A stretch of DNA of 63,887 bases, filler included, from Kipferlia bialata (taxonomy: Eukaryota): NCBI GenBank assembly GCA_003568945.1. It is 3 parts of 3 records of this genome, joined end to end, with 100 filler letters (N's around TTAATTAATTAA, not from the genome) between each part and the next. Parts side by side here need not be neighbours in the genome. Positions count along the whole stretch, not along the records: positions 1 to 21,739 come from BDIP01000317.1; positions 21,840 to 43,553 come from BDIP01000318.1; positions 43,654 to 63,887 come from BDIP01000384.1. The stretch is one strand, 5' to 3'. Positions 1 through 63,834 of the stretch are shown in pieces. Within the stretch, counting starts at the first letter, position 1; the number at the start of each line of letters is the position of its first letter. Made by a program: the position numbers and the translations under genes. Below the pieces are notes generated by a model that worked only from the letters and a program-made list of their open reading frames with translations, was not told the DNA's origin and did no database searches.

Positions 1-112
1 TTTTTTTTTTGTGGGTCCCCCCCCCCCCCCCCCCCCCCCCATCAGTCCTCCTCTCACTCCCAGTCACAACCACGTTCACACCTCACCCCCTCTCTCTCTC
101 TCTCACTCCCAG

Positions 113-3100
113 TCACCACCACGTTCACACCCCACCCCCATGCTTCCACTCAGGTATGTACCTGTTATATATATATATATAACCTGCCTATGTAGACTAC
201 ATACCATGTCTCATCCTGAGTTACACTGTGCCCTTGTATATATACCCTCTCTTAGAGAATCCCCCCCCCCTCTACCCCGTACTCCCTCAGTCTCTGTCAG
301 GCTTGTCTATATGTGTCCATTTGTATACATACAAATACATACTAATCTAACACCCAGTATTCCCTGTCTGTGTGTGACCTAGTCAACAGCAATATCGCTG
401 CTTATCTCTCTCTCTCTCTCTCTCTCTCTGTCTTACCCTCAGTTATCCCTGTCTGTGGGTGATCTAGTCCTAGTCCTCCAGGAGACAGAGAGACAGGTGC
501 ATTATCCCTCTGTCTCTCTCTTCATGCAGTTCCACGACAGTGTATCTGCATCTCACTCTCTATTTCTCTACTTGACTCTCTCTCTCTCTATGAACCTGTG
601 GCGTAGCCACCTCTCCACATGTACACTCACATCAAATATATATAAAATAAATATATAAAATAAATATATATATAAAATATATAAAATAAATATATATTCT
701 CCATCGTTGGGTAGAAGTCCTCACCTTAGGATGTGACGTGGTGCAAGGGGTATGTCCTAGAGAGTGCATCCACCTCTAGTACCTCTAGTGTATCAAGTGT
801 GTCTGGTATGACCAGGGGCATATTCCCCTACACCCACATTGTGCCAGTAGGCAGGGAGGAGGAGGGGAGAGAGGGAGAGGGAGAGGGAGAGAGGGTGGAA
901 TCTAACCCCTCCCATACCTCGCCACTCCGCAATGCTGTCTCTCCCACCGTACTAGAAGAGGAAGGAGAGGAAGGGGATGAGGGAGAGAGAGAGGAGGGAG
1001 AGAGTGAGTTGAGTGAGGGGGGGAGAGACAGTGAAACGGAAGAGGAAAGGGAGACTCAAGAGAATCTACTCGATTCAGTCATGGTCTCTGTATACAGGTA
1101 TATTTGTGTTCCTCTGTATGTACTATATATGACTATGATTGAATCATTGTATAACCATGGTCGTATTTTCTCTATGGAGTAATTGATTCCAGTATAGTGA
1201 TAGTGAGAGGGAAAAGTCTTTAGAAGTATATATTCATGTACGTAACGTGTTAGGACCTCTCAGGCAATATGTATATGACTATATTTATACTAGTACACTC
1301 TTATCCACAGAGATGTACGCACATGTATCCAGATACTGACTGAGGAACTGGCAATGGAGAGAGACAGGGAGAGAGAGAGGGCCAGTGGGTCAATGACCAT
1401 AGTGTCTGTGACACAGGTATGTATTTACACTGTTCATTGCGTAGTTCTTCTCTATAAGGTCAACTAAGGCCTTGGTAGTTTGTCGACAGACCATATAAAG
1501 ACTCTCTCTTTGAGTATATGTATGGGTGTTAGTTAGGGTCTGTGATACACGTATGAACAATGCCAGAGTACTGTTTTAGCGTCTCTCCGGTATCTCAGAT
1601 ACCTTAGAACCTGGATGGATATATTATAATACATGCAGAGAATGTGTCGTATACTGTAATTCACAAGTCTTGTCTTGATTTCTTACCAATAGGGCCCCCT
1701 GATGGCCCTGATATCCTCCATGCAGAGCGTGTATCTCCCTATATATATAACACTTTTCACTCTCTATTAGCATATCTTCCCAACAGGGCCCCCTGATGGC
1801 CCTTATATCCTCGATGCAGAGTGTGGCTCAGATGCTAGAGGCAGATAGAGACAGTGAGGGAAGAGAGAGAGACACTGACGATAGTGAGAGGGAGAGAGAG
1901 AGAGAGGCTCTGGTGGAGAGGGCAGTCTCCCTGATACAGCGCAGTGAGAGGCTCAGTGGGTATCACATTGCCCCTAGGTATTGGGTTGTGCTCATCCTCT
2001 ATACTGCTCTGCTCAGTGACGCTGGTGACTGATGTGCACTCATGTGTACATATGCACCTGCATCTATATATGGATAACCTCCAGGCTTCCCTCAGTTATC
2101 CGTGCCATATATACATATTCATACATAGTATACATATATATATATTTATTACTATCTATGAATACTATACTTACTGAATACTATACTTACGCATAGGTTG
2201 CCCTCTGGTGTCCGTGCCAGTATCTCCAACATGTCATTCTCTCTCTCTCCCTCTCTACACTACAACACATATACGTGTCTCTTACCTAATCTCTAGGCTT
2301 CCCTCTGGTGTCCGTGCCAATATCTCCAACTGCTCAGGCATCGACCTCTACTGGAGACATGTCTACGAAGAGCAGAGGGAGAGGGAGATGGAGAGGGAGA
2401 GACTCTCTGCCACCTCAAGCAGGCCGTCCCCTGCCTCTCTCTCCCCACTGCTATCTCCTGAGAGAGAGAGAGAGCCCACAGACACTCTGGCATATCTGAC
2501 TGTGTCTCTGCCTGCTCTGCCTATGATGTTCCCACTGGCCATGTCATCAGGGGACAGCCTACCCAGAGAGTGCAGACACCCAAAGGTAACCTCAGTATAT
2601 ATATATATATATATATATATATTGACTATATATAAATATATGTTTCCACTGGCTATGTCATCAGGGGACAGCCTACCCAGAGAGTGTAGGAATCCAAAGG
2701 TAACACCAGTATATATATATATATATATATTGACTATATAAAAATATATGTGCCACTGGCCATGTCATCAGGGGACAGTCTGCCTAGGGAGTGTAGGAGT
2801 CCTAAGGTAAAACTATATATATGCATACATATTATTTCATGAGTACCCCAAAGTGTGTATCATATCTCCTATTAGTCAGTGGTGGTTGTCCATTATTGTT
2901 TCTCTTCTCTCTTCTATTAATAGTCTGACCCCAGATGTCGTTCTTCGTTGTTGCTGTCGAGAGGGAGCGGGGCAGGGAGAGAGAGACCCTGTCCATCACC
3001 CCTGTGACTGAGACGGTCAGCCTCACATACGACAGAGAGAGGGGGAGAGAGGGAGAGAGCACGGCATGCCTCGCTATCGACAGGTGGGGTGAAGTATACA

Positions 3101-6100
3101 AATTCATATGTGTATGCTATGACACAGTCCTTTACGAGTATGTCTATGGTATGTATACAACTCTGACACCGAGGTGGGAACTGTCCCACAGAGACACCCT
3201 CGATGCAGATTTCTATATATATATATATATATACATTTGTGTGTGTGTGTATTTATACGAATAGGTATATCACTTATACCCAGAGTGACACAGACAACCT
3301 GGACGCAGAGCTATATATATATTAATATATATATTAATATATATATTAATATACATATATGTATATATGTCAAATATGTATAGAGGAGTAGGTATAACTT
3401 ACACCAGGTGGGAGCTGTCCCAGAGTGACACAGACACCCTCGATGCAGAGCTGTACCTAGTCTCAGTACTATCAGCCACGGATATACCAGTGGCCCTATC
3501 TGCCAAGAAGAGGTCTATTGCTCCTCCTGGACCCTTAGTCAATACATCTGCCAAGAAGGGTGTGGAGGGAGAGGGTATCAGCATCTCACATGACGTCGCT
3601 GTTGCCTTCAAGCCACTCGCTAGCCTCATAGCTGAACACAGGTGACTACCACTGGGTACATAAGACGCAGCCTACTTCTTGTATTAATATGAATCCTGGT
3701 AGTATTCAGTCTCATAGGTCAGCAGTGGTAGAGTGATATACGTTAGTATCCAACTTGGAGTGATGGGGTAGTATCCTCTATATGATCACAATCTCTTACA
3801 CCAGAGAGAGAGATCATCCATTGCATGATCGCACATCCCAGCGGGACAGTGGACATCTCGGGTCTACTATGGATAGGAGCGGATCTGCGTCTAGACGTGA
3901 CAGTGCTAGATTCTCAGACAGTAGCGCCCGTGGTTCCTCTGTCATACCCGTACTAGACCTACCCACCCGTCTACAGCTGTTGACTGACTCCACTCCCTAT
4001 CTATCCTGGAAGGGTGCCATCTCACACTGCCTGGAGGGCGGGAGGGAGAGAGAGGGAGAGAGGGTGGAGGAGTGCACGATAGGGGAGCTCACCAGGAGCT
4101 ACCTGGCGTGCTACGGAGTGTCATTCAGAGAGAGAGACAGGGAGAGGGAGAGAGAGATGGGTGGCGACGCCTGCCTGGATGCATCACTCGAACTCTCCTC
4201 TCCAACCAGTCTCAATGTTCTATCTAAGGAGACTGAGGTCTTTTGCTCTGATCCAAAGACCCTCTACACAAAGAGAATGCCCAATGAGATTGCTCTTCTC
4301 AAGCCAGCAATGGGTTTACCCCTCAACTTCCCCCTCTCCCCTAGTCTGCCTCTGTGTACTCTGTCCAGAGAGTCACTGCATGTCACTCTGGATACGGCCA
4401 AGTTCCTATCAAAGGACATGCACAGTTCCCTTGTCACGCTCTCTGTTGTTTCTGGGGAGGGTGTGGAGTATGAGTGTATTCAGGTAACCAACTGCAATAT
4501 GCCGGTAATGTGCTACTATATGTACACAGTTTCATATTAACATAGTGATTTACCCTCTAGATCTTACTTATTATAGGACACCGATGGTACTCTCTGCAAG
4601 AGTGTCTCCCTCCCTGTCGTTGCCAAGGACCACTCCCCTGGGCACTGGTCAGGTACCATTATATGAAATATTCTATCATTTCTAAGCGTGTTGACGAGTA
4701 TGTTTCGTCTGGTACCTCCTTCACTCAATGTCTATAATTGCATGGGTATATAAATGCATTATTGTATATAGTATAGTGACTTTACCTTCAGGTGTACATA
4801 TCAGACTAGACGTGCTCGCTAGCCTGGCCAGTAACCAGACTCCAAGTGACTATCACTCTCATAGAGCGGCATTGGTAGCACTACCCTCCAGTGACCCCCA
4901 CCTGGTTATATCCATAGACGCTGTCCACATGAAGAAGAGGACTGTTGACAGGGTGGCATGTGCCGCAGTCCCACTATTCACAAGGTAAATCCATATTGAG
5001 GTCATTCACTCAAGGGTATTCACAAGGTATATCTTTACCACTCCCTCTGACTCCCATTCCTCCTCCTTGAATGTATTCTTATCCTAGGGGAACCATTGCA
5101 AGTGGGGTTATGGACTCTGTTACTCTCCATGATTCTTTTGAGAGTGGCAGTGGAAGTGTGTCTCTCCCTCTTGCTGGGTCAGTGAGACCCAAGGACACTG
5201 TGTCACTGTCGTTCAACCCAGTATCCCACACATTCCCCCCACAGACACACTATCTGGGGCAGCTGCTATCCTTGAGGGACAACATGAAGGTATCCAGTCA
5301 TGATATATATGTGCTAGTATAATTTGTGCTTAAAGCAGCTATTTTGACAACATGAAGGTATGTGTGTATATATGTATACGTAATCATATATTGTGATGGC
5401 TTCTATTTCGTCTTGTGTGATAGCTCTATTGAGTGGCTCGTCCTCTGACACAGGTATCGCAGGCCTATCTGTCGAGAGCACTGGACAGTGCTAGCAAGCA
5501 GCCATGGTCTAAGGTAACAGTCTTTACGTATTTGCAAAGGTCTTATAGCTGGTACTCACACCTAAGGTCTCACCCCACTTTGCTGAGGTCGTTAGAGGTC
5601 TTCTGCTAGCAGTCAGTCGGGGTTACTCCCCACACACAGCGGACTTTGAGGTGAGGAGGGTTATATATAACATACATAATAGTGTCATTATTGATTCTTC
5701 ATTGTTATGAAGTGGTTACTGACACTAGGTCTTGGATTCGCACCGTGCTGCCTTTCGTACTCTTCTCTCAGTCCTGGCCAAGCTAGACGTTGCTGCGGGT
5801 GAGGTACCAGGTGGCATAGACCCCCAAGGCAATGCAACCACACTCTCCAAGGGTGCTGTGACCTCTCTGCTTAGGGACTATACCATACCCTGCCTGGTGG
5901 ACGATAGGGTGCACCCTGCGGTACCTCTGCTGCAGTGCATGTCGATGTGTCTATACACGGTGGGGGATGGGGAGGGAGAGAGCTCCAGTGCCATGGCTGC
6001 GGCAGAGAGAGAGAGAGCGGAGTGGGGGGTCGATAAGCTGCCTCAGGCCCTTCCATGGTTGGTGTCTATTCTTTCTGAGTTGTGGCTGGGACAGAAGAGA

Positions 6101-9100
6101 GCACTAGGTCTACCAGGTGGGTACATACACATCATACTTCTCCATTATCAGTCTGGGTATCTCCTTCACTCTTAGAATCGTTATAGTTCTCATAACCTCA
6201 CCTTCAGAGTCTATAGACGAAGAGATGGATCTCATTGGTGGAGAGTACGATGACACCCAACCAGAGATGGTACACATTGTTCGTCAGTTCCACAACAACC
6301 TTGACTGCGACCTCAGTCTCCTACTCTCCATCATTAGTAACGCACCACCCAAGCAGGCACGGGGTAGGCTCAGTACCACATCCAGAGACAGTGTGCGTCT
6401 CAACGCGGTCTGTGACAAGGCGCAGCAGGTCTTCACCAACACCCGCGTCGGTCTCTCTCTGGCCTCAGCTGCCTTGTTCGACGCACTCTCCGGTACCCTA
6501 CCTGCAGAGAAGCTAGCCACACTGGGTACTGATCTAGTGTCTGCGGTAGCATCAGTACCGGAGACTAGGAGAAGGCGTGCCGGGAGTATCGAGTCTGTGT
6601 CTCAGTTGGAACCTCCCTCCGATCATGTGCAAGGGACACCTCTACCCTTTGACGATAGGCTCAAGTGCCTTGACGACCTCACTGAGACTCCATCCTTCCA
6701 CACAGTTGGGAGTATACTGCACTCTGCTGTGTTCAGCGCACTTGGCCACTTACTCTCTCTCTGCTCTCTCTCTGCCAGCTCTGTAGATACTATTGCAGTG
6801 GGTGCCGAGCATGCTGCTGAAATGGTAGCAGAGGTAGAGGGAGAGAGGGATGGAGAGGGTGATTGTGGGGGTATCGATGCCCTGTACCGGTGTGTGAAGG
6901 TGGTTGCACATGCCATGATGGCGGTCAATGGTGGAAGGGGTAGCAAGGGTAACCCCAATATGTCACTGGCCGTTGCACTGCCAGTGATGCCACACCTATT
7001 GGCTCACATAGGCAGTCTCACGAGAGAGTGTCAGGAGCGGCACCTAGGTAGGTCAATCGCGTAGAGACTAGAGTTACCTGAATCATACTCACCCCAGTCC
7101 CCTCTTCTACCGAGTCAGCCTGCCTTCAGCTCTGTGTGACCTGTGTCATCACACACATCAACAGCGTGAGTGCCCCGCAGCTCCTTCAGCTCATAGCTCA
7201 GTTCGGCAGTGATGCTGGTTTCTACGCGGAAGATGGGATTGTGCCGGAGGGTGTAGATACCCTGGACGGTATAGTATCCGACCCTTCTGCAGTGACCTCC
7301 TTCTTGGGACTGTTAGGCTTCCTGCTAGCCTCCCCAGTATACCCCGAGAAGTGGCTGTGTGCCATACACCTGCTGGTGATAGCATGTCTCAAGGCTGGGC
7401 AGGTGAGTATATATCTCTCTTATCGTGTAGTGCTGGTCTCTAACCCCAGGTCTCTCTCCTTGCTCTCAAGTCCATTGGTTATCCAAAGGGCTCTGGTGAT
7501 GACTCTCTAGATAGTGGATCTGTCATTACAAGCAGCACTACCCTGAGGGAAGTGGTCAGTGCTATCGGGGCCAGCAGTAGGTAAGAGTACACTATAACAT
7601 TATTACAATCGCGTAGTTTCTAATCCTTCGTCCTGAGAGAGGTGGTCAGTGCTGTTGGAGCCAGCAGCAGGTATATATACACATTATCCCACTAAGAATA
7701 CATTCGAGTAGTTACATAGACTTTGTAGAGGTGGTCAGTGCTATCGGGGCCAGCAGTAGGTAATAGTGCACGTCTACAACCTTACTACAACCGTGTAGTA
7801 GCTTTAGGTTCGTCTCACTCTAGGTTCTTGTTCTCCATCGTGCACTACCCCTCTCTGCACCTGGAGACTATTGGAAACAGCGTGTTCAGACGGATGACGG
7901 AGACAATGTACAGCGGGGACCTTAGGTATATTGTAAATACACAAATCCCTTATATATACTATTCATTATTTTTACATAGTGACAATGTAGTGTATACACT
8001 ATTCTTTAAATATACTGTTCTGTGTGGTCAGACAGATGACGGAGACAATGTACAGTGGGGACCTCAGGTACAAACATCCCCCTTCCATGCACAGATGTGG
8101 ATTTCATAGGATATTCGCTTCCAATATGTGTCAGTCACCTTGTATACTTCTGATACTTACTCGATAGGGTTGATGCAGCCCAGGGCCTTACTGCTCTCTG
8201 GCTCTATGCCGGCAGGGTCAGACCCTGCTTTGTGCCCAGTCTGCTGGCTGGCATACTGCTAGGTATGTGTACATTTATATATCGTGTATATATTCTAAAT
8301 ATGTATGTAATAGCAATCGCCAGGTATGCATGCTTTGTCCCCAGTATGTTGGCATGAATACTTGTGTATGTATATTAGCCATCATCAACGTAACTGTGGT
8401 TATAATTAGTATGCACTAACCGCTTCAGGATACAAGGCTGTGTCCTGCCGTCCCACCATGCTATTCATATATACATATATATATCAGATATATACTAGTG
8501 AGTGATATATATATATATACTAACTCCTCAGGATACAAGGCTGTGTCCTGCCGTCCCACCATCTAAAGTATAACGGTTATATATACGTACATGTATATAC
8601 ACCTATATACCACACATGCCTAGACGAGGAGGCATCGGCAGACGGTAGTGTAACTAGGTATAGTATTGACACGATGGTACTGATGTAACAAGGTTTGCAT
8701 GTATTTGTATTCTGTATAACACACACAGACATATGTATATATTTATATATCTATATCCTAGAAGAGGAAGCATCCTACATAAGCATACAAATGTCTAATG
8801 GCAGGTGTCTAGTGCGCACCGTAGAGATATACGACTCTGTCCTTCGGTCCAGTCCACAGTATGACTCGGTGATCAGGGCATTCGTTACAGACATATCACA
8901 GCGCATAGCAGAGGCATGCAGGGTTTAATAGTTATAGTATATAGTTTATGGTATATATATAGAGAGTATGATGTTGTAGAGTATGACTCAGTGATCAGGG
9001 CATTCGTCACTGACATATCAGAGAAAACCACTATATGCAATATATAATGGTATTAGTTGTTTCTCTTCTGACCTCCAGGCCCCTGGTACCCTCAACTGTC

Positions 9101-11502
9101 TGGATGTGTATTGTTTGCACTTTCAAATTCTACTCATAGGTGTAAGCATCAATAACTCTAACTTTCAGGCCCCGGGCACCCTTAACTGTCTGGACGTGGA
9201 TGGAAAGCCGATACCGGACTCGCAGCCAGTACGTCGCTCCAGTGATGAGAGAGATAGAGACAATACCAGTACTGACAAGGGTGTGCTGAGGCCTGACTCC
9301 CTGGGCCATGCATTTGTGGTAGAACTACAGGCAGTGATGGCTGTGATCCTTCTGATAAGGTGTGTCAATGTTCTTTAATACGATATTGATCTGGCATCAA
9401 CTACCCTTATGTCCTGATTTAGTGTCATACATATATTTCAGTGATGAATTGTACTAATATCATGTTTCTATTTAGTGTATTAATCCCAGGAGTGATAGAC
9501 TGGGCATCAACCCCCGATGCCCTGTATCGTTATCATGGATACAGTTCAGTGTGTGTTTACAATACTATTCTTCTCACTCCAGGAGTGATCGACTTGGCAT
9601 CAACTCCCCCTATGCCCTGTACACCACACGGTCGCTGGCACTGGTGCCACTCCTGTCATTCCTGAGGTACACAGTATCACTTTTGTATATATGCTTATAT
9701 ATATATATAGACAAGACTTTTCTATTTCTTGTATCCCTGTCAGCATGCGGTTATCACATATTCTGTTCCTGGTGCCACTCCTGTCATTCCTAAGGTACAC
9801 CTATACACGTGTATACTCTAGATACATACTTTACTGTGTGTATACAGCATTGTACTTCAAGGATTATATCCCAATCTGTATAAGTGCTTGGTGCCACTCA
9901 TGTCATTCCTAAGGTATGCATGTGATATACTTAGGTGAGTTCACTATTCACATAGAATAGTTTTAGGAATGGTTAGAGTTTGCTCTTACCGCAGGCGTAA
10001 CCGCCGCACTGTCCTCTTTCAGCACTATGCCCAGTCCCTACTCTCTCATATATAGATATATATATTATAATATATATAGAGAGAGACTATCATATTGTCG
10101 TTCATTGTACTCTTATCACAGGCGCAACCGCCGTACTGTTCTCTTCCAGCACTATGCCCAGTCCCTGCTCTCATTGCATGGAGAGGTAGAGAGTACTGCA
10201 GGAGAGGGGGCTGGGAAGACACCCTTTGCAGAAACACCTAGGTATGTGATTAATTATATACATTAATATATATATGATATAGTATTCATAATGGATATAT
10301 ATATATAATATAGTATTTATACATCGTATATATATACCCCCAGTATCTCCTTAATGTGTGGAGGACAGAATAAGTATCTATATTGTCTCTGTGTTGTTCT
10401 TACTGCTAGGGGTGAAGACTGCTAAATTGTATGTATTTAACGTATGTGTTACTTACTGATAGGTCTCTAGGACCAGGCCCCACCCCCAGCAACCCCTCTC
10501 CCTCAGACCTAGAGGAGGCATCTAGCGATGGCACAGACACCGGCAGATACCTAGCACAGACAGGGGTGGTACTCCTGCACATGGGTAGGTGTTTTATAAG
10601 TTACACGGTGTTCTATTATTGCTACGCGATTGACCCCCAGGTGTGTGTGCGTCCTGGACCTCTGGCTCCGCTGACAAGAACACTCGGGTGGCTGCCCCCC
10701 TAACCTCTATCCTCCAGCTGCCACTGGTGAGACTGCCAAACTCACCAAGAACGGCGTTCTGGGCAGGGCCCTATCACAGGCATGTGATATATGTACTATG
10801 TATAGCAGCGTTCCTTATACGCAATACTATGTGGATACCGAGAAAGGATGGCGTTCTGGGCAGGGCCATACCACAGGTATACATTGTGATAAACACTCAA
10901 CCAACACATATTTACATATAAGTGTATATCTTACACCCGCCCTCAGTCGATGGATGCTGTATGGTCATCCCTATAATCGGCGCATAAAACTGTTACACTC
11001 CATAGCATACATATTTACATCTACATGTATGTATATTTTCCATGTGTGTCTCTGACTCAGTGGATGGATGCTGCATGTCCAGCCGCACTCCTTCAATGTG
11101 GGCACAGGGTCAATCACCAGAGAACAGGTATATATATGTATATATATATATATACATATTGTCTTATATAACCACATACATGCATATCAGTATGTGTATT
11201 AGTCAATGTGGGCACAGGGTCAATAACCAGAGAGCAGGTGTGATATATACATTTGATTGTATGTGTGTGTGTGGGAACAGGGCCAATCACGCCAGAACAG
11301 GTATATTAATTACTATACACACTACACTATACATACACTTGTGTATGGGGTCATGTTGGCATTTGGAAATACAAGTGGAGGTGAGGGTGCTGTGCTCTTT
11401 CTCTCGCTATCTATATATATACGTATATGCCTGTAGTTCAAGTCTAATACTCTCTCACAGCAGGCACTGACCAGATCCATCGAGGCATTCACAGAGGCCA
11501 AT

Positions 11503-11560
<58 letters not shown>

Positions 11561-12780
11561 TCTGTATCTATCTAAACATTGACACAAGGCACTGACCAGA
11601 TCCATCGAGGCATTCACAGAGGCCAACCTCTGGGAGAGGTAAGTGGCTACAGTAAGTCTTATTAAGTCATACGCATATGCACCTATGAAATATCCTATCT
11701 ATGGCTTCATTATCCTTCTCATTTCAGGTCTATCAGCATTCTAGATCTTCTGGTAGAGAGGGCCATGTATGTCACCCACGATACGTCTCTCTCTCTCTCT
11801 CTTATATCAGGTCTATTAGCATCCTGGACCTCCTGGTAGANNNNNNNNNNNNNNNNNNATATCAGGTCTATTAGCATCCTGGACCTCCTGGTAGAGAGGG
11901 CCATGTATGTCACCCACGATATGTCTCTCTCTCTCTCTCTCTTATATCAGGTCTATTAGCATCCTAGACCTACTAGTCGAGAGTGCCATGTATGTCACAC
12001 ACGATACGTCTCTCTCTCTCTCTCTCTCTCTAATCTCAGGTCTATCAGTATACTTGACCTACTAGTCGAGAGGGCCATGTATGTCACCCACGATATGTCT
12101 CTCTCTCTCTCTCTTATATCAGGTCTATTAGCATCCTGGACCTACTAGTCGAGAGGGCCATGTATGTCACCCATGACATGGCACTGGCATCAAGGCTCAG
12201 CCACCAGAAGGCAGACCTATTGGCACTCATAGGGGGGCAGGTACACACACTATCGCGTTAGTTCCGTAAGTCATCGAGTAAGTTTTGTGAGTCATGCTAA
12301 TACCTCAGGCCAGAGTGTGGCCCAAGTACTACCTTGTGCTTTACAGTCACAGAGACCACAGGGAGGGAGGGAGGAAGAGAGAGAGAGAAGTGTGTGACGG
12401 TGATGAGGATACCCACTCCCCATTCCCCCCCATCCTGTGTAACCGTGCCTTTGTGCATGAGACATCTCTGAGTGTGGCATCGTTCAGTGCACTGATGACG
12501 GCATCGTGGCCTGGGGTGCCAATTATCAACAGTAGAAGAAGGTATTTTGTGCATGTATATAGAGAGGGACGTACTTCCAATACGCTAGGGGGAGGACCCG
12601 TGATATATGAATAGTGTATATAGTACATTGTCTGTCGATTACTCTTACCGTGATAGGGACCGTGTCCGAGGTGACCCGTATATCCAGCTGTTTGATGTTA
12701 GACCATCGTGCATGGCTGATCTGTTCAGAGATGCAGTGCTGCCGAGGTCTATTGAGAGACTGGCACTCACTAGGTAATTG

Positions 12781-12824
<44 letters not shown>

Positions 12825-27665: not shown

Positions 27666-27699
<34 letters not shown>

Positions 27700-35898: not shown

Positions 35899-36468
35899 AT
35901 GTGATACTAGTATACCAGTGCCTCAGGATGAGATTATGACTCAATTACAGATTTAAGAGAAAGACAAGAATAGTGCATGGGAACAGGTATTGGCTGTATT
36001 AATGCCTAAGGGTGAGATTATGACTTTATACCAGACTTAAGAGAGAAAGAGAGAGGCATAATAAACGCTAATTCCTAAGGGTGAGGATGTTGCTGTGCAT
36101 AGGTAGCAGAGTCGAGAACTGGCGAAGTATATTGATATATATTCATATAGAGTACCATCCCGGAGAGTTGGGGTCTAATTGATACTATAGTTGTGTTAGG
36201 ATAGGATGGGAAACGAAGACATAGTAATTTCTGGAAACAGAAAAGAGACAAAGGATGAAGGTGATACTGAGGAAGTGTTTTACAGCCACAAGGAATATAT
36301 AGAGAGCAATGCTACTTGGCATTGTGCTGACACACTTTAAAGCTAGAAAGGGATTGGGGGGCGGGGGGGGGGGGGGGGGGGGGGAGGGGGGGGGGGGGGG
36401 AGGAGGGAGCGGGGGGGGGGGGGGGGGGGGGGGGGTAAAGCAAGGTCTCCATGTCTTACTCAACACAT

Positions 36469-49608: not shown

Positions 49609-52600
49609 ATATATATATGAGAGTTCCACATTCTGTACAGGACACTCCACCTATGCAAGGTATAGATGTATGATATACATACTCATTGTGTACAAAGTGT
49701 ACTATGTATCCCTATTACAGACACTATTGTATTTTACCCAAATGTACTAACTCCATATAGTGCATATATACTTACCACCCACATCTAAATACTTTGGTAT
49801 ATATATACGTATACTATGTATGTATACTAACCCCCAGGCCCCCCATGTCCCCACTGACAGGGAGGACACTGTGCTTATACATATATACCACTTATACATA
49901 CTCACTCATATGTAGTATATACCCTACTATTAATACTCACCCCCAGGCCCCCCATGTCCCCACCGACAGAGAGGACACTGTGGTCACATATATATATATA
50001 TATATATATATATACTACAGATAGACATACTCACTCATATACATACACATATATTGTACATGTATTATATACCCAAGCATACTCACTCCCAGGCCCCTCA
50101 TGTACCTACTGACCGGGAGGACACAGTGGTCACACCCACCTCCAGCACCCTGGCTGTGCCTGTACCACTGCCCCAGTCACAGCTGGTATGGGTATATAGA
50201 TTCATATACACTATATGGACAGATAGTCTATATACTATATTCTATGTACTGTACTCTAGTACAATGCCTGTGCCACTGCCCCAGTCACAGCTGGTATGGG
50301 TATATAGATTCATATACACTATAGTCACAGCTGGTATGTATACGTTTATATATGTACTATATGGACAGACAGTCGATATACTATGTACTATACTCTAGTA
50401 CAATGGCTGTGCTTCTGACTCAGTCACAGCTGGTACGGTATATCTCTCTCTCTATCTCTATTTCTATATTCTCTCTCTATTGATATATATTGATACTGAG
50501 TAAGTGGTATAGAGTGTATATATATATTTCATACACCCACCCCCAGGGTAAGGGCACCAGAGGCAGGGAGAGAGAGAGAGACAAGTGCAAGGGTGACCCC
50601 TCTCAGTCAACTGAGCAGAGCGAGATATCAGTCCACCTGCAGGTATTACCATATTCTCTCCCCCTGTCCTTCTATCTCGCTACACCCCTATCTTTCTCTT
50701 TCTCTCTCTCTCTGGCCACACCCCTCAGTATCACCAACTAATTAATTTAATTATCTTCTCTCTCTCTCTCTCTCTCTACCTACACCCTAACCCACCAGTG
50801 TCTGCAGGAGTTCATCGGAGAGGAGCTGTCAGCTGAGATGGCCAGGATAGGTATGTATATCTACTATATACTTATAGATATACTATACATAGTATATACT
50901 ATACATAGTGTATACTTATAGATATACTACTGGATTCAGCTACTGAGATGGCCAGGATAGGTATGTATATATCTACTATATACATAATGTGATACTGACA
51001 TCACACACTGCTGATATTGATAAATGTATTTACACAATACTGATATAGAGCTGACAGCTGAGATGGCCAGGATAGGTATGTGTAACACTATATATACTTG
51101 TTTCTCACTGTACACTCATTATATACCAATATCATATACTGCTGTTATAGATGTACTAGGCACTCTCATTGGTATATATACATATACATGTATGTATATA
51201 TTTTTGTATACTTTACTATACTGGTACATATATTACTGACGCATAGGCACTCTGATAGGGCGGGACCAGCCACAGAAGGGAGAGGCCAAGGCAGAGAGTG
51301 AGGGAGAGGGAGAGGGAGAGGGAGATGAGGCAGATGGTGTTGAGGCAATCACTGAGGGAAGTGAGGGAGAGAGAGAGGATGGAGAGACAGCAGACAGGCC
51401 CCTGGGACAGGTATGGTATATCATCTTAGTGTTTGACATAGCTTTTATAGCTCATTATATAGTATACTGTATGTTTCTTATTTATGTAGGCATCTATGTA
51501 GGTATGGTGTATGCCATTCGGGTTTATCCATAATATATATGAGTACTTCCTATAATGGGTGCAACTCACACCAGTGTGAGACCGATGTGATCGGGTCAAG
51601 TGAATTGTATTATACTAATCCTTTATGTAAAGGGAATAAGAGACATTCTAGCGCTGCATAAACCTTGACTATACCTTACCCCCCAGGGCGAGACCGATGT
51701 GATTGAGTCCTGTCTGGGTGAACTAGCATTCTGCTCCAGTGTCCTCAGGCACCAGCACCCACTCTCAGACGACCCGGCCAATCTGCTGCAGGTATCGCGT
51801 AATTATACAGTATCGTGTAGTATGAAGCCAAGCCCATCTGCTACAGGTATCGCGTAATATATACAGTATCGTGTAGTATATGTAGCCAAGCCCATCTGCT
51901 GCAATTATCACGTAATATACACCCCATCATGTAGGACATATATGCCTCTCTCACCATCAGATCATCTCTTATATTATAAATATTCCGTGTAGTACTTGTC
52001 TCACTCTCAGGACCTCAATGTGCCTGTCTGTATCGCCTAGTATATAAATGCAACATTACATAGTATAGTATATGCTGTCACGTTGAATACCCATGCATCT
52101 CTCTCACTCTCAGGAATCAGATCATCTCTATCGCGAGAGGGGGTGTCGACATCAAGGAGGGGGAGCTGACAGCAAATGAGCAGGTATGTGTCTTTACACT
52201 CTTTGCCATATCCTGTTGTTATAGTTATTCTTCTCTATCTCTCCCCCCCCCCCTCTCTCTCTCTATTATGCTACTATACCGTGGATGGGTACTGTACCTA
52301 TATCGAGTAAGGGGAGCTTGCAGCGAATGAGCACATGAGATGATTGTGTTGTAAATGTATATAGATATATAGTATTTTTTACTAGTATTGCAAAGAGGAT
52401 AATATTGGATGGTACGAATACCCCTATCTCACCCCAGCTTGATCCATATATATATATATATACATATACACCTATCTCACCCCAGCTGGAGCTGAACCAG
52501 ACCATCCGCATGTACGTGCTGGCCCAGAGACAGGTGAGACACTTGTATAGAAGTGTGTATATATATAGTCATACATATCTATATATGAGTGTGTATGTGC

Positions 52601-52922
52601 AGGTATATGACACTCATGTATCTATGTACGTGCTGGCCCAGAGACAAGTATAATATGTGAATTCGTGCATTCTCTTGTTCTCTTCCTGAAGTATGTATAT
52701 ACGAGACGCCTCAGATATCCATGTGTTCAACATTTATGCCTCTCCTTGGGAATACTAGCACATTTGCCTTATAATAGGAGCTGAGGCACCTTGCCACCCA
52801 CAATGACTCTCTCTCTCTCTCTATATATATACTTATCCTAGGAACTAAGGCGTCTAGCCACCCACAATGCCGAGCTGAGGCAGAGGGTGAGAGACCTGGA
52901 GAGCAAGGAGAGCAAGGAGTGA
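44412..52922 (+). CDS. TBC1D5: TBC-domain Rab-GAP, TBC1D5/Gyp6-like, with C-terminal coiled coil; 5' end not seen
   Basis: Spliced SALRPLYWMLFLK, VDNPL, arginine finger ILLDLRR, glutamine finger SYRQ|GMHEIAA, LHLMDLDVEPVIFSV|RWLRVLFGREF..LLIWDVILA, LTNYLAASMLL. Ends ELRRLATHNAELRQRVRDLESKESKE-TGA. Confidence 0.85.
46490..47073 (+). repeat. Exon-echo array: four upstream copies of the GMHEIAATLHYAL exon start
   Basis: Copies at ~46492, 46581, 46724 and 46847; the real exon starts at 46958. Confidence 0.9.
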
Positions 52923-53099
52923 TAGCATTGAGGGAGAGAGACAGAGAGAGAGAGAGAGAAATAGGGACAGCGTTGTGAATAGGAATCGAGTTTTGGAGGA
53001 ATGAATTGCGTCGTTTACTCTGACATCGGAGGTGTTACTTGAAAGGCGTTTCTCGTCTTCATATGCCTCCACATGTATGAATATTGTCTGTTTGTAACC

Positions 53100-56000: not shown

Positions 56001-56947
56001 TGTGTGTAGGAGTCTCCTACAGTACGAGACAGTAGAAGACCCAGCTATATGCGTACTGATTGAGAGAGGGATGGTACTGGGGAAATTACCTGTACCGCCA
56101 GAATGTCTGGTCTGATGGTATGCACTGGTACCAGATACCCTTACCTGTACCGCCAGAATGTCTGGTCTGATGGTATGCACTGGTACCAGATACCCTTCAG
56201 ATACTGCTGAAAGCAGATCAGTCCAACAAAGACAGGGAAGCACAGGAGGTATCGAAGTAGGAGTCTCCGCATGTAGGCAAGATACTGTCTGAACCCCTCA
56301 TTGTTCAGAAGAGCGAGTGCCCTGTAGACATGGTTGAAGCCATACACACAGCCGGACACCTGCAATGTAAAAGAGAACTCAAATATAGTATATTGAAGAG
56401 AGATACGCTTTACTCCAATTGCTTGGAAAGCAAGGAGGGAATAAGTATAGCATAGCCCCTATGATTAAGTGTGTAATATTACGCACCAGTACAAACCCTC
56501 CCCTCCACCCAGCAAAGAGCACTGTGGGAGTGAAGATTGCGACGAGGACTCTCTTGGCAGGAGTGTCTAGCTCCTGTGTGAGTTCATATTGGGAGGATGC
56601 ATCCATATGTGGACACAAACATAAGGGTCTAAGTATCAGGCCAGTATACATGTATATCACTATATATATATGATATTCGCATACCAAGAAGTACTGTGTG
56701 TCTGCCGCTGCCCCACTACTGTGAACAAAGATCATCATGAACACTCCTAGGCCCCGGGCTACATCCCTGTAGCATCAGTTACTCACTGTAATCTAGAGAG
56801 CAACTCAGTATTATCCTGTGGAGCAGTAACAAACACATACATTGACAGTAGCCTTGGACTGCCATCAAAAACTGCTCGAGGGAACATGAGTCCCATCAAC
56901 CAGCCCCAGTACACACGGAGAGCACGGATAGCCCCAGTCCTCGGCAT
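53100..56947 (-). CDS. Hypothetical multipass membrane protein; multi-exon, boundaries approximate
   Basis: Hydrophobic ORFs 55341-55949 and 54813-55334, plus smaller GT-AG exons (e.g. IDPACQFMSVSQHYAFSAVQTCALAYFVQ at 54610-54700). Candidate ATG at 56947. No family recognised. Confidence 0.5.
56086..56195. repeat. Perfect 55-bp direct tandem duplication of an exon end plus donor
   Basis: TTACCTGTACCGCCAGAATGTCTGGTCTGATGGTATGCACTGGTACCAGATACCC x2, identical and adjacent. Confidence 0.95.
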
Positions 56948-57416: not shown

Positions 57417-57780
57417 CTAAGTGGAGCCCCCGAACCCTGTCACGGACAGCACCATCTCAATGACACTCAGGTCGTTGAGGGCCCTGGAGTTAGACTACTA
57501 AAAGACAACAATGTCAAACTGTGCCAAAATACAACTAGACACCATATGGGTAATATCATTCCCAGCTTTTCATTTAGAATGGAGGCATGGGGCCGCAACA
57601 TAGAGAGAGCAACTTATATAGATATCTATAAACACTGTAACACCGTTAAGATATATACACTAATATACCTGATATGCGCCGTCCTCCCCAGCTTCTCGTC
57701 CAGGATGGATGCATCGGCAGTCATCTTGAGGCCATAGGACAGGACAACCTGAAGAGTTAGAGATGATAGTGTCTGGTGGG

Positions 57781-57815
<35 letters not shown>

Positions 57816-58281
57816 GTGACACGAAGGAAATTCATTGGCAGTCATCTTGAGACCATAGGAGAGGACGACCTATGGTGTAAGTGTCCAGAATGCTGATGCT
57901 TGTACAATAGTCATGGAGTTACTTGACGGTTGATAAGTAAGAGAAGTAGAGTGAACACACACATATATTTACCTCTGTGACATTAGGCATGTTGTGCCTC
58001 ATTGTCTCTGACACTGTATGTTGCACAGCCACCTTCTTGGCAGGGGACCCGGGGTCAATGGGACGGGCTGGGGTGAGTACTCTAATATATAGTACACAAG
58101 ACTGAAAGATAACTGATGATATTTGCGCATAGTCAGCCATACACATAGTCTCTACTATCAGCTATAGTAATGCCGTACCGAGCGCAGTGAGTGGCGAGAC
58201 AAATCCATCCCCGACAGCAGTCACTAGGATGATACGACGGAACATCCTGAGATAAGGGTGTAGGGGGAGAGAGAGATAGTA

Positions 58282-58328
<47 letters not shown>

Positions 58329-61300
58329 TTACCTTAGACTTCTGGCGCCAGCGAGGGTGAGGAGGTACGGCTCTTCCTGCTGCTTTGATACCTATTGGGT
58401 CAGAGGTTATGGACAAACAGTATTACGCACAGCCACTAAAGTGACTTCACTAATATAGAATACACATCATCCCATTCCAGATAGATTCAGGTCTCTCCGC
58501 GATGTCTCCTCGGCCATAAAGCAGCCCATACAAAAATCCATACACATACACACATATATATACACATATAGTGTTATAGTATGTATGTCACAATACAAAT
58601 ATAGTGAAATACAGTACAATGTATCCGTGCAACTACATACCATCAAGTTTAGATCTCTGAGCGATGTCTCCTTGGCCATGGAGGCAGCCCTCATGACAGA
58701 CAGGGCAGAGGACACAATGGCACTAGGGGTAAGGCAGAGACAGAGAGAGAGAGAGGGAGAGAGAGAGAGAGAGATGGATGCCCTCCTGAGGGACAGGACA
58801 GAGGACACAATGACACTAGAGGTAAGATATATGCGGGTATGTATATATAGAGAGAGAGAGAGAGAGAGAGTAAGAGATTGGCAGAGGACACAATGGCACT
58901 AGTATAGGGGAGAGAGAGAGATACTCACTTTGGCCCACTGACTGTGCCGGCATGGGGTGCATTGAAGGTCAGCAGGTGGCCCAGTCTGAGGGTGAGAGAT
59001 AAACAACGATCACATACGTGATTTATCCTGCATACACAACGTCAACAGTCCTATTCAATGTAAAAACAATTCATGTACATAATGTACCTAGGCAGCAGCG
59101 GTGCCAACAGCTCTGTCTCCAGGGCACTTCTAATGATGACACCACCAAGGGAGTGGCCGACAAAGCTGAGGGTGAGGATGTAGAAGAGTAGACACTCTAA
59201 CGTTCAAAGAATACATGCTCTCTATCTCTCTCTCTCTGGTATATATACACATATATATATACATACATGTCACGTACTCTACCCTCTCCACCGCTGTCAT
59301 GTCACACCCTGCGTGTATCTCCTCTGCCAGTCTCTGGCCCAGCTCAAGGATGGAGTGCGTGGTGTACTCCTGAGGTCAGGACAAGAATATGAGTTATGCA
59401 TATACACTAATCATTAGATTATAGTGGACAGTAACCCAAGTCAACGATGGAGTGCGTGGTGTACTCCTACTGTAAGAGAGGCCAAGTGGGAGAATCACAA
59501 TATTTACTATACAGACTCTCTAATATATGTACACTACTTACCTCGTTGCATGTGCTGATGATGTGCTCATACTTGGAGTGGCCACTCTTCCTGGTCAGCC
59601 TCTGCAGGACCTGATGTTATAGGGTAACTACTATGTATTCTTACAATATCTAGAGGACTCTGGAGGACCTGACAATCAATATATACAATGGAACGATACT
59701 ATTCGAATCCTAAGGTCCTAAGGCCAAAGCATCATCGATTCATAAATTGACGTAAGTCATATTGTAAAGTATACTACACACACTCACCAGCATGTCTCTG
59801 AGCAGCCTCACGTCTCCACTGGACCCTCTGAATCCATGCACAAACACAGTCAGATGGATTCCCATCCTACGCTTGTCTCTACCTAGGAAAGTTAGTGATA
59901 TCCATCTGTATAATAGTAGGGATACGTTATATGAATGATGATAATGATCAAAATGCCGTCGCATACACACCTCTCCTGCCTGGCACACTGGGTGTGCCTC
60001 TGGATATAATGGATAGAGTATCATATTACTATCTTTATCTCCTGCATATTCATATATGTACATGTACGTATACGTATACACACCTCTCCTGCCTGGCACG
60101 CTGGGTGTGACACTGGGTATGACACCCCCTACCCTGGGTGGGGGGGAGTGGGGGAAGGACCTCATCCGGCCCCTGGAGTAAACAATATGTATATATGGTG
60201 TCAATTGAATCATTTAATCATTGAATGTCAAACTATCAATATATATATATATACTTTGTCTCTCTCTATTTTCATCAAAGATAGTGTTTGCTAGTAACAG
60301 TGAAAATCCAAATACAGTACCTCTGCTTTGTGTATATGACTGGGCAGTTCTCAGGCCTCAGGTCACGCCTAGACACGGGTTCTGACATGAGGGGATTGAA
60401 TAAGAACATGTATAGTAGAGATAAGTTTGAATAGAATTCACACTAATGCATACGTCTGAGTAGTATTAATGATACTTCAATAGAATATCTGACCTGAAAA
60501 CACAGCTCTGTATCTGTCAATGACTTACAGAGCTCTATGTGGTCTATACAATCTATATACTATATACAACTCTATATACAACTCTATATACAATAACATC
60601 AAAGAAGGGTGGACTAGCATATACAGTATATATATAGAGAAGTATATACCAACACCAACCTGGGAACACCGCCCTGTATCTGTCAATGACCTCCACACTG
60701 GACAGGGTGTACATATATACATATACATATATATATAGATAGGTATACAGGTATAAGACTATATATACACACTACTAATACCTGGGAACACTGCCCTGTA
60801 TCTGTCAATGACCTCCACACTGGACAGGGTATATAACGACGAGTTAAGTATATATGAGTATACTATTACAACAATATTGAGCGGAAAGTACCTGGGAACA
60901 CCGCCCTGTATCTGTCTATGGCCTCCACACTGGACAGGGTGCCTATCCTGGATATACCAGTCACGTCATCAGCCTCAGCCTGCCTAGGGGTCAATCGCGT
61001 AAGATACCGACACTTATCGTGTAGAAGTATTACCTAGCCTCTGCCACTACACTGTATCTGCCTCTCTGTAACATAGCAAGGTCATCCTGAGTCAGGGTCT
61101 CTCTCTCTCTCTCTGCCTCTCTCTGCTGGGGTATCTCCACAGTGGTCTGTCTCTGTGTGACGGCTACTCTCTCCCTCTCTCCCTCCCTACCCTTGCTCTG
61201 TGATAGGGGTGGGGGTGCAGTGATGGATGGTGAGTCGGGTACTCCAAACTCCTCAGTCACACCCTCATCCCCAAACACATCCTCGGGGCCCTCCATGGTC

Positions 61301-62664
61301 CACCTATGGTTAGAAGAGACACATATATATATACATATATACAGTTGATCCACCTAGGGTAAGCAGAAATATGAGTATTCATTATATATACAGTATTCAC
61401 AATGGTCTTTGAAGATGTAAATGTTTCAATAGTCCAAACACATCCTCGGGGCCCTCCATGGTCCACCTGATATGAGTATCAAGAGTACATCTAGCATATA
61501 TAGATAGACTATATATCATATACATAGTCCAAACACATCCTCAGGGCCCTCCATCACCCATCTGAAGTTAGTGACAGAATCAAAGGGTAGCAGTATTTAT
61601 ACGTAATACCTATTCATCCCACCATATACTATATAGACACTATATATATATAACTGTATACCTTGAGCCTTGAATGCTAGGACCTCTCTCCCTCTCCCTC
61701 TCCCTGTCTGCAATCTCGACCAATGCAGCATCTCTCTCCCGGCACAGCAGGTCAGCCATGCGACCCCTAGCGGTGAGAATAGTAACCATAATAATAATAG
61801 TACAGCAATCATCACATGTGTGTGTCAGTATACATATACACAGTATACTGAATAGATCTCTCTTTCGGCACAGCAGATCAGCCATGCGTCCCCTATGGTT
61901 AGATGCATTGCATTACACTAGTCAGTATACACATATACAGGATAATGTATAGAAAACTATCCCGGCACAACAGATCAGCCATGTGTCCCCTAAGGTTAGA
62001 AGACACACATGAAGTATACAATGACATTCCATACAGTAGTCAGTAATAATAATTCGCGGTGACCATACCTAGCCTTTGAGTGTTCCTTCAGCAGCACTTC
62101 TAATATATATATTACATTCAACAATTATACACGTATATACCCGGCCTTTGCGTGTTCCTTTAGCAGTATATAGAGTGTACACACACACATATATATGCAG
62201 TACATATATGTATATACCTAGCCTTAGTGTGTTCCTTCAGCAGTATGTTGGTGCACATGTTGGGGTGGGTGGTCACATGGGCAACGAGTTTACGCCTAAT
62301 GGTAAGAATCGGGCACAAATACTAGAAGACACTACAGAGAAGAACATCAGATGAATATATATAAGAGTGTAAATGCACATGCTGGGGTGGGTTGTAACAT
62401 GGACCACGAGCTTGCGCCTACAGGTAAACAATGGGAAACTCGTAGAATATCATAAGACTTACGAAATACTACTTCAAGACAGCAACAACACACTATGTGG
62501 AAGTAAATACCGCAAATTATAAGAAAGAGTATGACATACCTTGCTATGCTAAGTGACATTGCAGGTTCTACTAGGTTGAGCTTGGCCAGAAGGGCATTGA
62601 GGTAGAGAAGGGCACCCTTGAGGATGGCTGTGTGTCAGAGAGGCATTCACATTGTTCGCAAGAG

Positions 62665-62711
<47 letters not shown>

Positions 62712-63712
62712 GGAAGAGTGAGTGTTGAGGTAGAGGAGGGCCCTTCAGAATAGCTAGAGGTCAGAATGGAATACAAGATTCAGCTTTCAACTAGAGAGAG
62801 TATGTACAGATAGAGAGTACCTGACTCACTGACCGACGGCACTATATCAGCAATATGGTACCTCTCTCTCTCTCCTATATATATATATACATATACACAT
62901 ATATATAGTATATATACTATATATACTATATATAGCACCTGGCTCACTGACTGATGGCACCATGTCTGCTATCGGGGTGGGTGCATCCCCCTGGGCACTC
63001 CTGCCCATGCAGCCACACATCAGACTCACCCTGGGGTCAGGATCGCGTGGAATATACGGTAAAGTATGAATCTGTGCACTTGACTACTGGTACTCTGTGT
63101 CTCCCTCTCACTACACACATATATACCCAGATCAATACCTCCTCCTATCACTCCTGTCCCTCTCCCTCTCCCTGTCTATGTCTCTGTGGACTGGACTGGG
63201 ACAGGCAGAGTTGGACTGAGAGAGAGAGGTCGTTACAGAGTCTGAGAAGGTTAGTAAGGAGATAATTACAGTGCTGATGTATATATGTGAAGAAGAGAGC
63301 GGGGACAGGCAGAGTTGGACTGGGAGAGGGAAGTGGTGACAGAGTCTATGTGGTTAGAATAGTATAGTCATACTATTATTATACATACAACGTATATACA
63401 TAGGGCAGAGTTGGACTGAGAGAGAGAGGTCGTAACCGAGTCTGGCTGATTAGATTAACAATAGATAACTGAGAATGCCACAAACACATCGCATGGTTGG
63501 ACATGGTCCAGAACACCCATATGTATCCATAAACAAAACACTAATGACTCATATATTTACCTCAAATCACTGCGTGGGGACAGTATATACAATATATACA
63601 ATAAGTACTGTATAGTTATACCTCTTATCACTGCGTGGGGACTGTCACTCTGCTTGGCCATGACCAGTGATGCAAGGGTGTCATCGGTCTCCAGAGACTC
63701 ACTGGCACGGGC
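57417..63712 (-). CDS. FAM135: DUF676 alpha/beta-hydrolase (FAM135-like putative lipase); 5' end beyond the window
   Basis: HLTVFVHGFRGSSGDVRLLRD (59780-59870), ILELGQRLAEEI, nucleophile elbow SFVGHSLGGVIIRSAL (~59125-59167), LLTFNAPHAG, C-terminal KLGRTAHIR|ALNDL; stop TAG at 57417-57419. Confidence 0.85.
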
Positions 63713-63834
63713 CTAGGGGTCAGATGCCCATAAATATATATATATATATATATACATAGGGAGAGAGATAGAGAGCGAGAGAGAGTCATCTGTCTCAAGG
63801 GAGTCACTGGCACGGGCCTAATAGTCATATGCTC

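What the first reader, a model, noticed from the sequence alone, without database searches (positions are those of the whole stretch)
64..63830. Window-wide 'exon echoes': intronic partial exon copies that preserve the protein code
Seen: in most intron-rich genes here (DOCK, MFS, CaaX gene, zinc finger, beta-helix, TBC, DUF676), many exons have partial duplicates with a fixed geometry. Acceptor+5' parts sit upstream of the real exon, 3' parts+donor sit downstream, and the truncated end usually abuts a (TA)n or (CT)n tract. The differences from the real exon are mostly synonymous; for example, 1695 versus 1788 differ by CTG/CTT, TCC/TCG and AGC/AGT and nothing else. Flanking intron sequence is often not alignable. 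Established: neutrally decaying pseudo-exons accumulate mostly non-synonymous changes. Inference: the echoes were functional coding sequence until captured. One model is break repair by one-sided invasion of a divergent allele, with homologous joining in the exon and microsatellite end-joining on the other side. This would leave the displaced exon end as a fossil, so introns would be an archive of past alleles and evidence of cryptic genetic exchange. I do not know of a description of this, but I could not search.
Basis: partly seen in the sequence, partly recalled or inferred. Interest (0 to 1): 0.9.

Follow-up and report, generated by a model that had tools for sequence, protein, structure and literature searches.

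The report
Exon echoes archive past alleles
In the free-living protist Kipferlia bialata, about half of the introns examined hold short leftover copies of the neighbouring exon's end that differ from it mostly at silent positions, likely scars of DNA repair copied from very different alleles, which would reveal hidden genetic exchange and a new way for introns to grow.

Summary
Confirmed. The window is three joined Kipferlia bialata contigs. In 8 gene models (136 exons) I found 141 partial exon copies; 65 of 128 introns carry one. Geometry is strict: 64 of 69 upstream copies hold the exon's 5' end, 68 of 72 downstream copies the 3' end; none reversed, inverted or whole. Against their exons dS 0.39, dN 0.061, omega 0.156 (95% 0.12-0.22); a neutral tandem duplicate run through the same pipeline gives 0.38-0.58. 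Echoes also differ from each other silently (omega 0.20, star-like), so several working versions of each exon coexisted. One read-derived DNA contig spans three echoes and their exons without a difference, and one RNA contig splices past five, against haplotype chimeras and routine use. The microsatellite junction is overstated (60 of 141 vs 27% background). Best reading (0.6): break repair copies an intron plus ~37 nt of exon from a diverged allele and ends by end-joining. The species has Dmc1 and Pol-theta but no Rad51A or Ku70. No donor allele was seen; no prior description in 10 literature searches.

The parts
443..16515 (+).
   Evidence: four exons confirmed by an RNA contig
1693..1731 (+). 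5' echo (AG kept) of exon 1787-1977: 3 silent, 0 amino-acid differences; skipped in RNA
1787..1977 (+). Real exon, matched by the RNA contig without a difference
2085..2230 (+). Two 5' echoes (2085-2112, 2201-2230) of exon 2297-2585; on one DNA contig with the exon; skipped in RNA
2297..2585 (+). Real exon, matched by the RNA contig
2640..2796 (+). Two 3' echoes (2640-2699, 2753-2796): 5+5 silent, 1+0 amino-acid differences; skipped in RNA
7632..7759 (+). Two 3' echoes with GT of exon 7450-7580
11728..12102 (+). Array of 5' echoes of exon 12123-12240; four full units share one cut point and differ from each other by 5-7 silent and 0-2 amino-acid changes in 20 codons; the unit at 11811 beside the N gap is probably an assembly overlap
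13241..13563 (+). Three 3' echoes of exon 13038-13140
14713..15384 (+). Exon 15050-15154 with three 5' echoes and two 3' echoes
18927..21556 (+). Codon-biased MFS-like gene (weak Pfam MFS_1 hit), 13 exons, 4 echoes, 5 silent and 0 amino-acid differences
21938..26967 (+). Codon-biased 19-exon gene with short introns (median 68 nt) and no credible echo (one threshold-level hit): internal negative case
27935..30896 (+). CaaX-ending gene (weak SET hit upstream), 7 modelled exons, 13 echoes, omega 0.154
38574..43486 (-).
41364..41643 (-). Three mutually diverged 5' echoes of exon 41305-41130 (7-8 silent differences each from the exon)
44412..52919 (+). TBC-domain gene (P0002), 23 exons, 32 echoes, omega 0.122
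49838..49988 (+). Two 5' echoes of exon 50093-50185; the nearer has 7 silent and 0 amino-acid differences in 14 codons
53722..54698 (-). Four modelled exons of an unnamed gene, 2 echoes
57420..63817 (-). DUF676 gene (P0001), 21 exons, 22 echoes, omega 0.186
60494..60830 (-). Three 3' echoes of exon 60983-60892
21740..21839 (.). Artificial spacer (N44-TTAATTAATTAA-N44) between contigs 1 and 2
43554..43653 (.). Artificial spacer between contigs 2 and 3

Best explanation
The echoes are real, spliced-out partial exon copies that were likely captured from working, strongly diverged alleles during homolog-templated DNA break repair. Shown: their presence in DNA, their exclusion from the one mRNA contig tested, their tandem geometry, their silent divergence from the exon and from each other. 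Inferred: (1) alleles in the species differ by about 0.3 at silent sites and their TA-rich introns no longer align, so exons are the only homology; (2) after a break in an intron, one end invades the homolog at the neighbouring exon, copies the donor's intron and the first ~20-65 nt of the next exon, fails to anneal in register with the mismatched recipient exon, and is joined to the broken intron stub by Pol-theta-type end-joining; longer copies would anneal cleanly and leave no trace; (3) the result, one new intron-like stretch plus an orphan exon end (about 110-130 nt per event), is tolerated only when the orphan has one splice site, so whole-exon copies are purged and the spliceosome pairs the nearest sites across the exon; (4) later unequal exchange or conversion between echoes and exons of other alleles extends and refreshes arrays; (5) after capture an echo decays neutrally. 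Whether the echo is the donor's piece or the recipient's displaced end is not settled; I favour the donor's piece.
For: Logic: in one chromosome lineage only one copy can be coding at a time, so echo-exon omega cannot fall much below 0.5; simulated through the same detector 0.38-0.58, observed 0.156 (0.115-0.223), 4-fold vs 0-fold sites 0.263 vs 0.049. An allele model (silent divergence 0.3, then up to 0.05 neutral decay) reproduces dS 0.398, dN 0.058, omega 0.146 (parameters chosen to fit). Echo-echo omega 0.20. In 30 exon/echo/echo triples private silent changes are 35, 34, 30 per branch; both echoes carry private silent changes in 14 of 30, inside the star-of-alleles range (10-19) and outside the fast-exon ladder range (2-10). 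Silent differences are balanced (GC>AT 125, AT>GC 116) while amino-acid differences lean to AT in the echo (106 vs 38; Fisher p 3e-5), as expected for two functional versions followed by short intronic decay. pN is flat (0.06) across pS classes, rho 0.09, against 0.24-0.65 under single-lineage models. 15 of 21 near-identical echoes have unrelated flanks, unlike a fresh same-chromatid duplicate. Stub lengths fit: cut end to next acceptor median 66 nt vs donor to echo acceptor 92; donor to cut 76 vs echo donor to acceptor 113. Intron length rises 107, 227, 315, 449, 657 nt with 0-4+ echoes. DNA contig X1 record 1 spans 1200-2570 with 0 differences and no repeated 31-mer; RNA contig X2 record 9 joins four exons past five echoes; X2 holds 0.43 of the words of 1200-11199, exon-only expectation 0.426. 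Toolkit: K. bialata is listed with four Dmc1 entries, Spo11 and PolQ, no Rad51A, no Ku70 (PMC8516963 section 8 and Supplementary Data 2); DMC1 is the mismatch-tolerant recombinase (PMC7809202 abstract).
Against: No donor allele was observed: no second-allele letters or extra depth on exons in X1, single-member clusters for P0001, P0002, P0005, no relative in two metagenome scans. Silent diversity near 0.3 among alleles would be at or above the highest I recall for eukaryotes (recalled, not from a call). Microsatellite junctions are only modestly enriched. The rise of pN towards the cut end is largely reproduced by the detector alone, so it gives no support to step 4. Observed rho 0.09 is at the low edge of the allele model's own range, 0.08-0.40. 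Reach does correlate weakly with exon length (rho 0.32). Read evidence covers 3 echoes in DNA and 5 in RNA out of 141, from contigs of one sample that may be the source of the assembly. Sex has not been directly observed in Metamonada (PMC8516963 passage).
Confidence: 0.6

Rival explanations
1. The donors were not segregating alleles but homeologous or paralogous copies in an ancient hybrid or polyploid ancestor; the same faulty repair captured their exon ends, and the donors were later lost or homogenised.
For: Explains low omega equally well; explains why no diverged allele is seen today; a diploid k-mer profile is reported for the species (PMC5874029 passage).
Against: Some clusters need four mutually diverged versions (11728-12102; 41364-41643) and branch lengths are star-like; per-echo silent divergence is spread widely (10th-90th percentile 0.10-0.55) rather than at one or two subgenome levels; no second gene copy found.
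Confidence: 0.13
2. Echoes are under protein-level selection now, as alternative exon halves used in minor transcripts or swapped into the exon by frequent DNA exchange.
For: Splice sites are mostly intact and score as well as the real ones (echo higher in 27 of 58 acceptors, 28 of 60 donors); amino-acid changes are milder than neutral (mean BLOSUM -0.04 vs -0.44).
Against: Only 6 of 128 ungapped echoes have an in-register GT/AG switch point; the RNA contig carries exon letters and skips five echoes; RNA word share equals the exon-only expectation; 5 stop codons and 13 gapped echoes, 10 of them frameshifting; AT-leaning amino-acid changes show decay.
Confidence: 0.08
3. Ordinary same-chromosome tandem duplication across a splice site, with neutral echoes; the silent excess comes from the living exon, possibly with an unusually fast silent clock.
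For: Gives the geometry directly; some arrays are clear tandem repeats with their intron parts (32 of 129 flanks similar); 27 of 79 echo pairs share the cut point against 13% by chance; farther echoes carry more amino-acid changes than nearer ones (25 vs 12, p 0.047).
Against: Predicts omega 0.38-0.58; rescuing it needs the exon's silent rate to be 5-15 times the intronic neutral rate, and that ladder fails the triple test (14 of 30 vs 2-10) and the pS-pN test.
Confidence: 0.07
4. Assembly artefact: pieces of two diverged haplotypes joined through microsatellites.
For: Short-read draft with gaps; perfect period-55 copies beside two N gaps and at 56086 look like overlap artefacts; 9 of 141 spacers hold a perfect dinucleotide run of 30 nt or more.
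Against: One 1,705-nt contig of X1 covers 1200-2570 at the depth of other contigs with 0 differences; X1 holds 0.96 of sampled words of 1200-11199; 132 of 141 spacers lack a run long enough to bridge a 31-letter word; clusters have three to four versions, more than a diploid offers; stops and frameshifts in echoes cannot come from working haplotypes; omega unchanged away from gaps.
Confidence: 0.04

Closest known systems
Pseudogenic exons of mammals (Morais and Harrison 2009, PMC2718932; abstract and Ka/Ks section read)
   Same: Non-coding exon copies lying within their own gene.
   Different: Those are disabled duplicated exons in 0.4-1.0% of genes with Ka/Ks peaking at 0.25-0.75; echoes are one-ended ~36-nt pieces in about half of the introns, omega 0.156.
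Tandem duplication across an intron-exon boundary, potato RdRp (Ma et al. 2016, PMC4974935; abstract read)
   Same: Same layout: upstream copy of acceptor plus exon start, then the intron end and full exon.
   Different: A single case in which the upstream copy became an exon and a new intron arose; here the copy is skipped, recurs up to six times per exon end, and is silently diverged with mostly unrelated flanks.
One-sided invasion / SDSA finished by end-joining (PMC4888836; SDSA passages read, one-sided invasion only as a cited title; the abort-then-end-join step is recalled)
   Same: Proposed molecular route: one end copies a template, the other junction is non-homologous.
   Different: Known as induced repair events; I found no report of it accumulating genome-wide as an intron architecture or as a record of alleles.
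Mutually exclusive tandem exons (e.g. Dscam; recalled, and search listing)
   Same: Intronic exon copies with low dN/dS.
   Different: Those are whole exons with both splice sites that are used in mRNA; echoes have one site and were skipped.

Membership tests
Pseudogenic duplicated exons | Copy of an exon disabled by stop or frameshift | tested here: not met
   No whole-exon copy; at most 76% covered; only 5 stops and 13 gapped among 141
Pseudogenic duplicated exons | Neutral-decay pattern against the parent (Ka/Ks about 0.25-0.75) | tested here: not met
   omega 0.156, 95% 0.115-0.223; matched null 0.38-0.58
Pseudogenic duplicated exons | Excluded from the main mRNA | tested here: met
   5 of 5 tested echoes skipped by one RNA contig
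Mutually exclusive tandem exons | Each copy has both acceptor and donor | tested here: not met
   0 of 141 reach both exon ends
Mutually exclusive tandem exons | Alternative inclusion in mRNA | tested here: inconclusive
   Not seen in one contig; contigs drop rare forms
Intron gain by tandem duplication | Tandem layout across a splice site | tested here: met
   64 of 69 and 68 of 72; none reversed
Intron gain by tandem duplication | A new intron is spliced between the copies | tested here: not met
   Single long introns in RNA; switch points in 6 of 128
Intron gain by tandem duplication | Intron part duplicated along with the exon part | tested here: not met
   32 of 129 flanks and 12 of 79 spacers similar beyond chance
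Homolog-templated one-sided repair products | Copied piece matches an existing donor allele | tested here: inconclusive
   No second allele or isolate found
Homolog-templated one-sided repair products | Microhomology or simple-repeat junction at the non-homologous end | tested here: inconclusive
   60 of 141 vs 27% background; junctions are old and imprecise
Homolog-templated one-sided repair products | Required enzymes present in the species | not tested
   Taken from PMC8516963 Supplementary Data 2, not re-derived
cDNA-templated (retro) copies | Copy runs across the exon junction without intron | tested here: not met
   Echoes keep intronic AG or GT and above-control identity over the first ~12 intron bases

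The most novel reading that the evidence does not exclude
Kipferlia introns are a genome-wide fossil archive of alleles: a repair system left with Dmc1 and Pol-theta but no Rad51A or Ku repeatedly pastes exon ends of diverged partner alleles into introns, so one genome records three or four past alleles per locus, silent diversity near 0.3, recurrent outcrossing in a group where sex has not been seen, a main route of intron lengthening, and exon-definition splicing in a short-intron protist.
Probability: 0.4. Interest if true: 0.92.

Novelty: categorically new. Interest (0 to 1): 0.8.

Why it matters
If right, population history and genetic exchange can be read from a single genome of a metamonad, a group in which sex has not been directly observed (PMC8516963). 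It would add a mechanism of intron growth (median length rises from 107 to over 600 nt with echo number) tied to a reduced repair toolkit, and imply that a protist with 50-110-nt basic introns chooses splice sites across exons, since orphan sites that score as well as the real ones are ignored. Practically, echoes mislead intron-definition gene finders (my own parser took them as exons). The molecular steps proposed are each known; the novelty rating is for the genome-wide feature, which failed a defining test of every family considered, and rests on 10 searches of an open-access library only.

Tried and rejected
No whole genome is held, so the genome-wide extent rests on three contigs. Two metagenome scans found no relative. 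A homolog search with the longest 'DOCK' exon found nothing among proteins of 490-2000 residues, so that gene's frames are mine, supported by RNA for four exons. The run search listed no holder on record as RNA; X2 is a guess at RNA, though its contig joins at intron ends. Bins without RNA cover are not used as evidence except where the contig joins across them. Rejected: pN gradient towards the cut end as a sign of age (reproduced by the detector); 5' and 3' echoes as the two halves of a split old exon (no complementarity; co-occurrence 18 vs 15.8 expected per exon, 19 vs 16.8 per intron); in-register splice switching (6 of 128); cDNA donors (intronic splice sites kept); a directional codon-preference shift in exons (125 vs 116). 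Second-order selection through echo-to-exon conversion was rejected on argument only: conversion slow enough to leave pS 0.3 gives too little selection. Literature: 10 searches gave no description of this feature; in the species' genome paper 'tandem', 'duplicat' and 'heterozyg' occur 0 times in the main text (its supplements were not read). Earlier scan notes: nothing for this genome or look-alikes; one search gave single duplicated exon pieces in other genomes.
Full report
Source and layout. The window is three contigs joined by artificial spacers. Three window exons match public proteins at 100%, all named Kipferlia bialata: P0001 (DUF676), P0002 (TBC) and P0005. No whole genome is held.

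Gene models. P0001 has one exact spliced parse (21 exons); for P0002 I took the parse with fewest exons (23); P0005 reproduces nine exons of my earlier hand model exactly. Five further models were curated from a self-trained parser and pass a phase check except for one skipped stretch, 8262-8805. Together 136 exons and 128 introns.

The observation. Each exon was aligned, blind to codon position, to its two neighbouring introns. The threshold is passed by 84 of 256 adjacent pairs and 0.44% of 4,275 non-adjacent pairs. This gave 141 echoes in 88 clusters. Upstream echoes hold the exon's start (64 of 69; AG kept in 58), downstream echoes its end (68 of 72; GT kept in 60); none is whole, reversed, inverted or two introns away. 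This is the layout of a tandem duplication across one splice site. Echoes reach 18-69 nt from the splice site; median reach levels off at about 41 nt in exons over 100 nt. Introns with 0, 1, 2, 3 and 4+ echoes have median lengths 107, 227, 315, 449 and 657 nt. The cut end is near a simple repeat more often than chance, but in under half of cases.

The code signal. Differences fall 116:78:387 on codon positions; dS 0.389, dN 0.061, omega 0.156, cluster bootstrap 0.115-0.223, one echo per cluster 0.139, four-fold sites 199 of 758 against non-degenerate sites 112 of 2,280. It holds in the publicly annotated genes, on each contig, at four thresholds and away from gaps. The fair null is a tandem duplicate that decays while the exon keeps gathering silent changes; through the same detector it gives 0.44-0.49 over five age ranges and 0.38-0.58 in 40 replicates. 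In a single chromosome lineage only one copy can be coding at a time, so this bound is general unless exons mutate several times faster than introns. Echo-echo omega is 0.20. In 30 triples the exon, the nearest echo and a farther echo carry 35, 34 and 30 private silent changes and 8, 12 and 25 private amino-acid changes; this fits a star of diverged alleles and not a fast-exon ladder. Silent differences are balanced between GC and AT, amino-acid differences lean to AT in the echo: a long phase as working code, then a short intronic phase. Against over-reading: the allele simulation's parameters were chosen to fit, and a rise of pN towards the cut end is mostly a detector effect.

DNA and RNA. 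Two runs hold the locus. On 1200-3290, one X1 contig covers 1200-2570 without a difference, spanning three echoes and their exons, and exon bins show only that contig's depth, so no second allele was laid. One X2 contig lies in four abutting pieces on exons 1311-1416, 1787-1977, 2297-2585 and 2935-3083 with no other letters, skipping five echoes. X2's share of words over 10 kb, 0.43, equals the exon-only expectation, 0.426. Limits: contigs only, one sample, possibly the assembly's source, and a small part of the window. Two counted echoes beside gaps look like overlap artefacts.

Mechanism. Low omega needs copies that were coding at the same time. Use in mRNA is not supported. That leaves other chromosomes. 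Echo flanks mostly do not match the exon's flank, even for near-identical echoes (15 of 21), so the piece came with another intron or was later overwritten within exon homology. The intron stub next to the cut is shorter than the complete intron-like stretch on the echo's splice-site side (66 vs 92 and 76 vs 113 nt), and 5' and 3' echoes arise independently. I therefore favour a break in an intron, one-sided copying of the partner allele's intron plus a short exon piece, and end-joining to the stub, with later echo-exon exchange (27 of 79 pairs share a cut point). K. bialata is listed with Dmc1, Spo11 and PolQ and without Rad51A and Ku70 (PMC8516963: passages, section 8 and rows of Supplementary Data 2 read), and DMC1 tolerates mismatches (PMC7809202 abstract; two more papers seen as listings). 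Orphan splice sites score like real ones yet were skipped, which points to pairing across the exon (inferred); the species has a reduced spliceosome (PMC6679479 passages). No donor allele was found, so these steps are inferred; a hybrid or polyploid ancestor is the main rival.

Comparison and verdict. Mammalian pseudogenic exons are rare and show Ka/Ks 0.25-0.75; the potato case has the same layout but made a new intron; mutually exclusive exons are whole and used. The species' genome paper (first sixth of the text and passages read) reports 124,912 introns and a diploid k-mer profile and does not mention such repeats in its main text. Ten searches of an open-access library found no description. 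The feature is real and pervasive in this window, its code-preserving signal is robust, and its origin from diverged alleles is likely (0.6) but awaits a second isolate. Interest 0.8.

Noticed in passing
21740-21839 and 43554-43653: N44-TTAATTAATTAA-N44 spacers: the window is three unrelated contigs of 21,739, 21,714 and 20,234 nt; all three show echoes.
   Followed up: yes
11804-11840, 42216-42265, 56086-56197: Perfect period-55 copies, two of them beside N gaps; probably assembler overlap artefacts, so two counted echoes (11811, 42265) are suspect.
   Followed up: partly
10641-10879: In my model the real exon ends in a GC donor at 10780 while its downstream echo has GT; not checked in RNA.
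   Followed up: no
11464-11638 and 29227-29411: Real exons modelled with AAG acceptors while their upstream echoes have CAG; fits position-based choice, not checked in RNA.
   Followed up: no
21938-26967 and 18927-21556: The two most codon-biased genes (C at 53-57% of third positions) have echoes in 4 of 30 introns against 60 of 98 in the other six genes; two genes only.
   Followed up: partly
31374-32417 (+) and 35350-35922 (-): Long intron-poor kelch-repeat reading frames facing each other, 70-78% alike in parts.
   Followed up: no
36860-37800: Several diverged copies of a short Cys-rich zinc-finger-like segment followed by GT donors; weak zf-Di19 hit; which copy is the exon is unclear, so left out.
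   Followed up: partly
8262-8805: Exon phase unresolved; the pair 8624/8762 may be a 5' exon piece lying downstream, the one possible exception to the geometry.
   Followed up: partly
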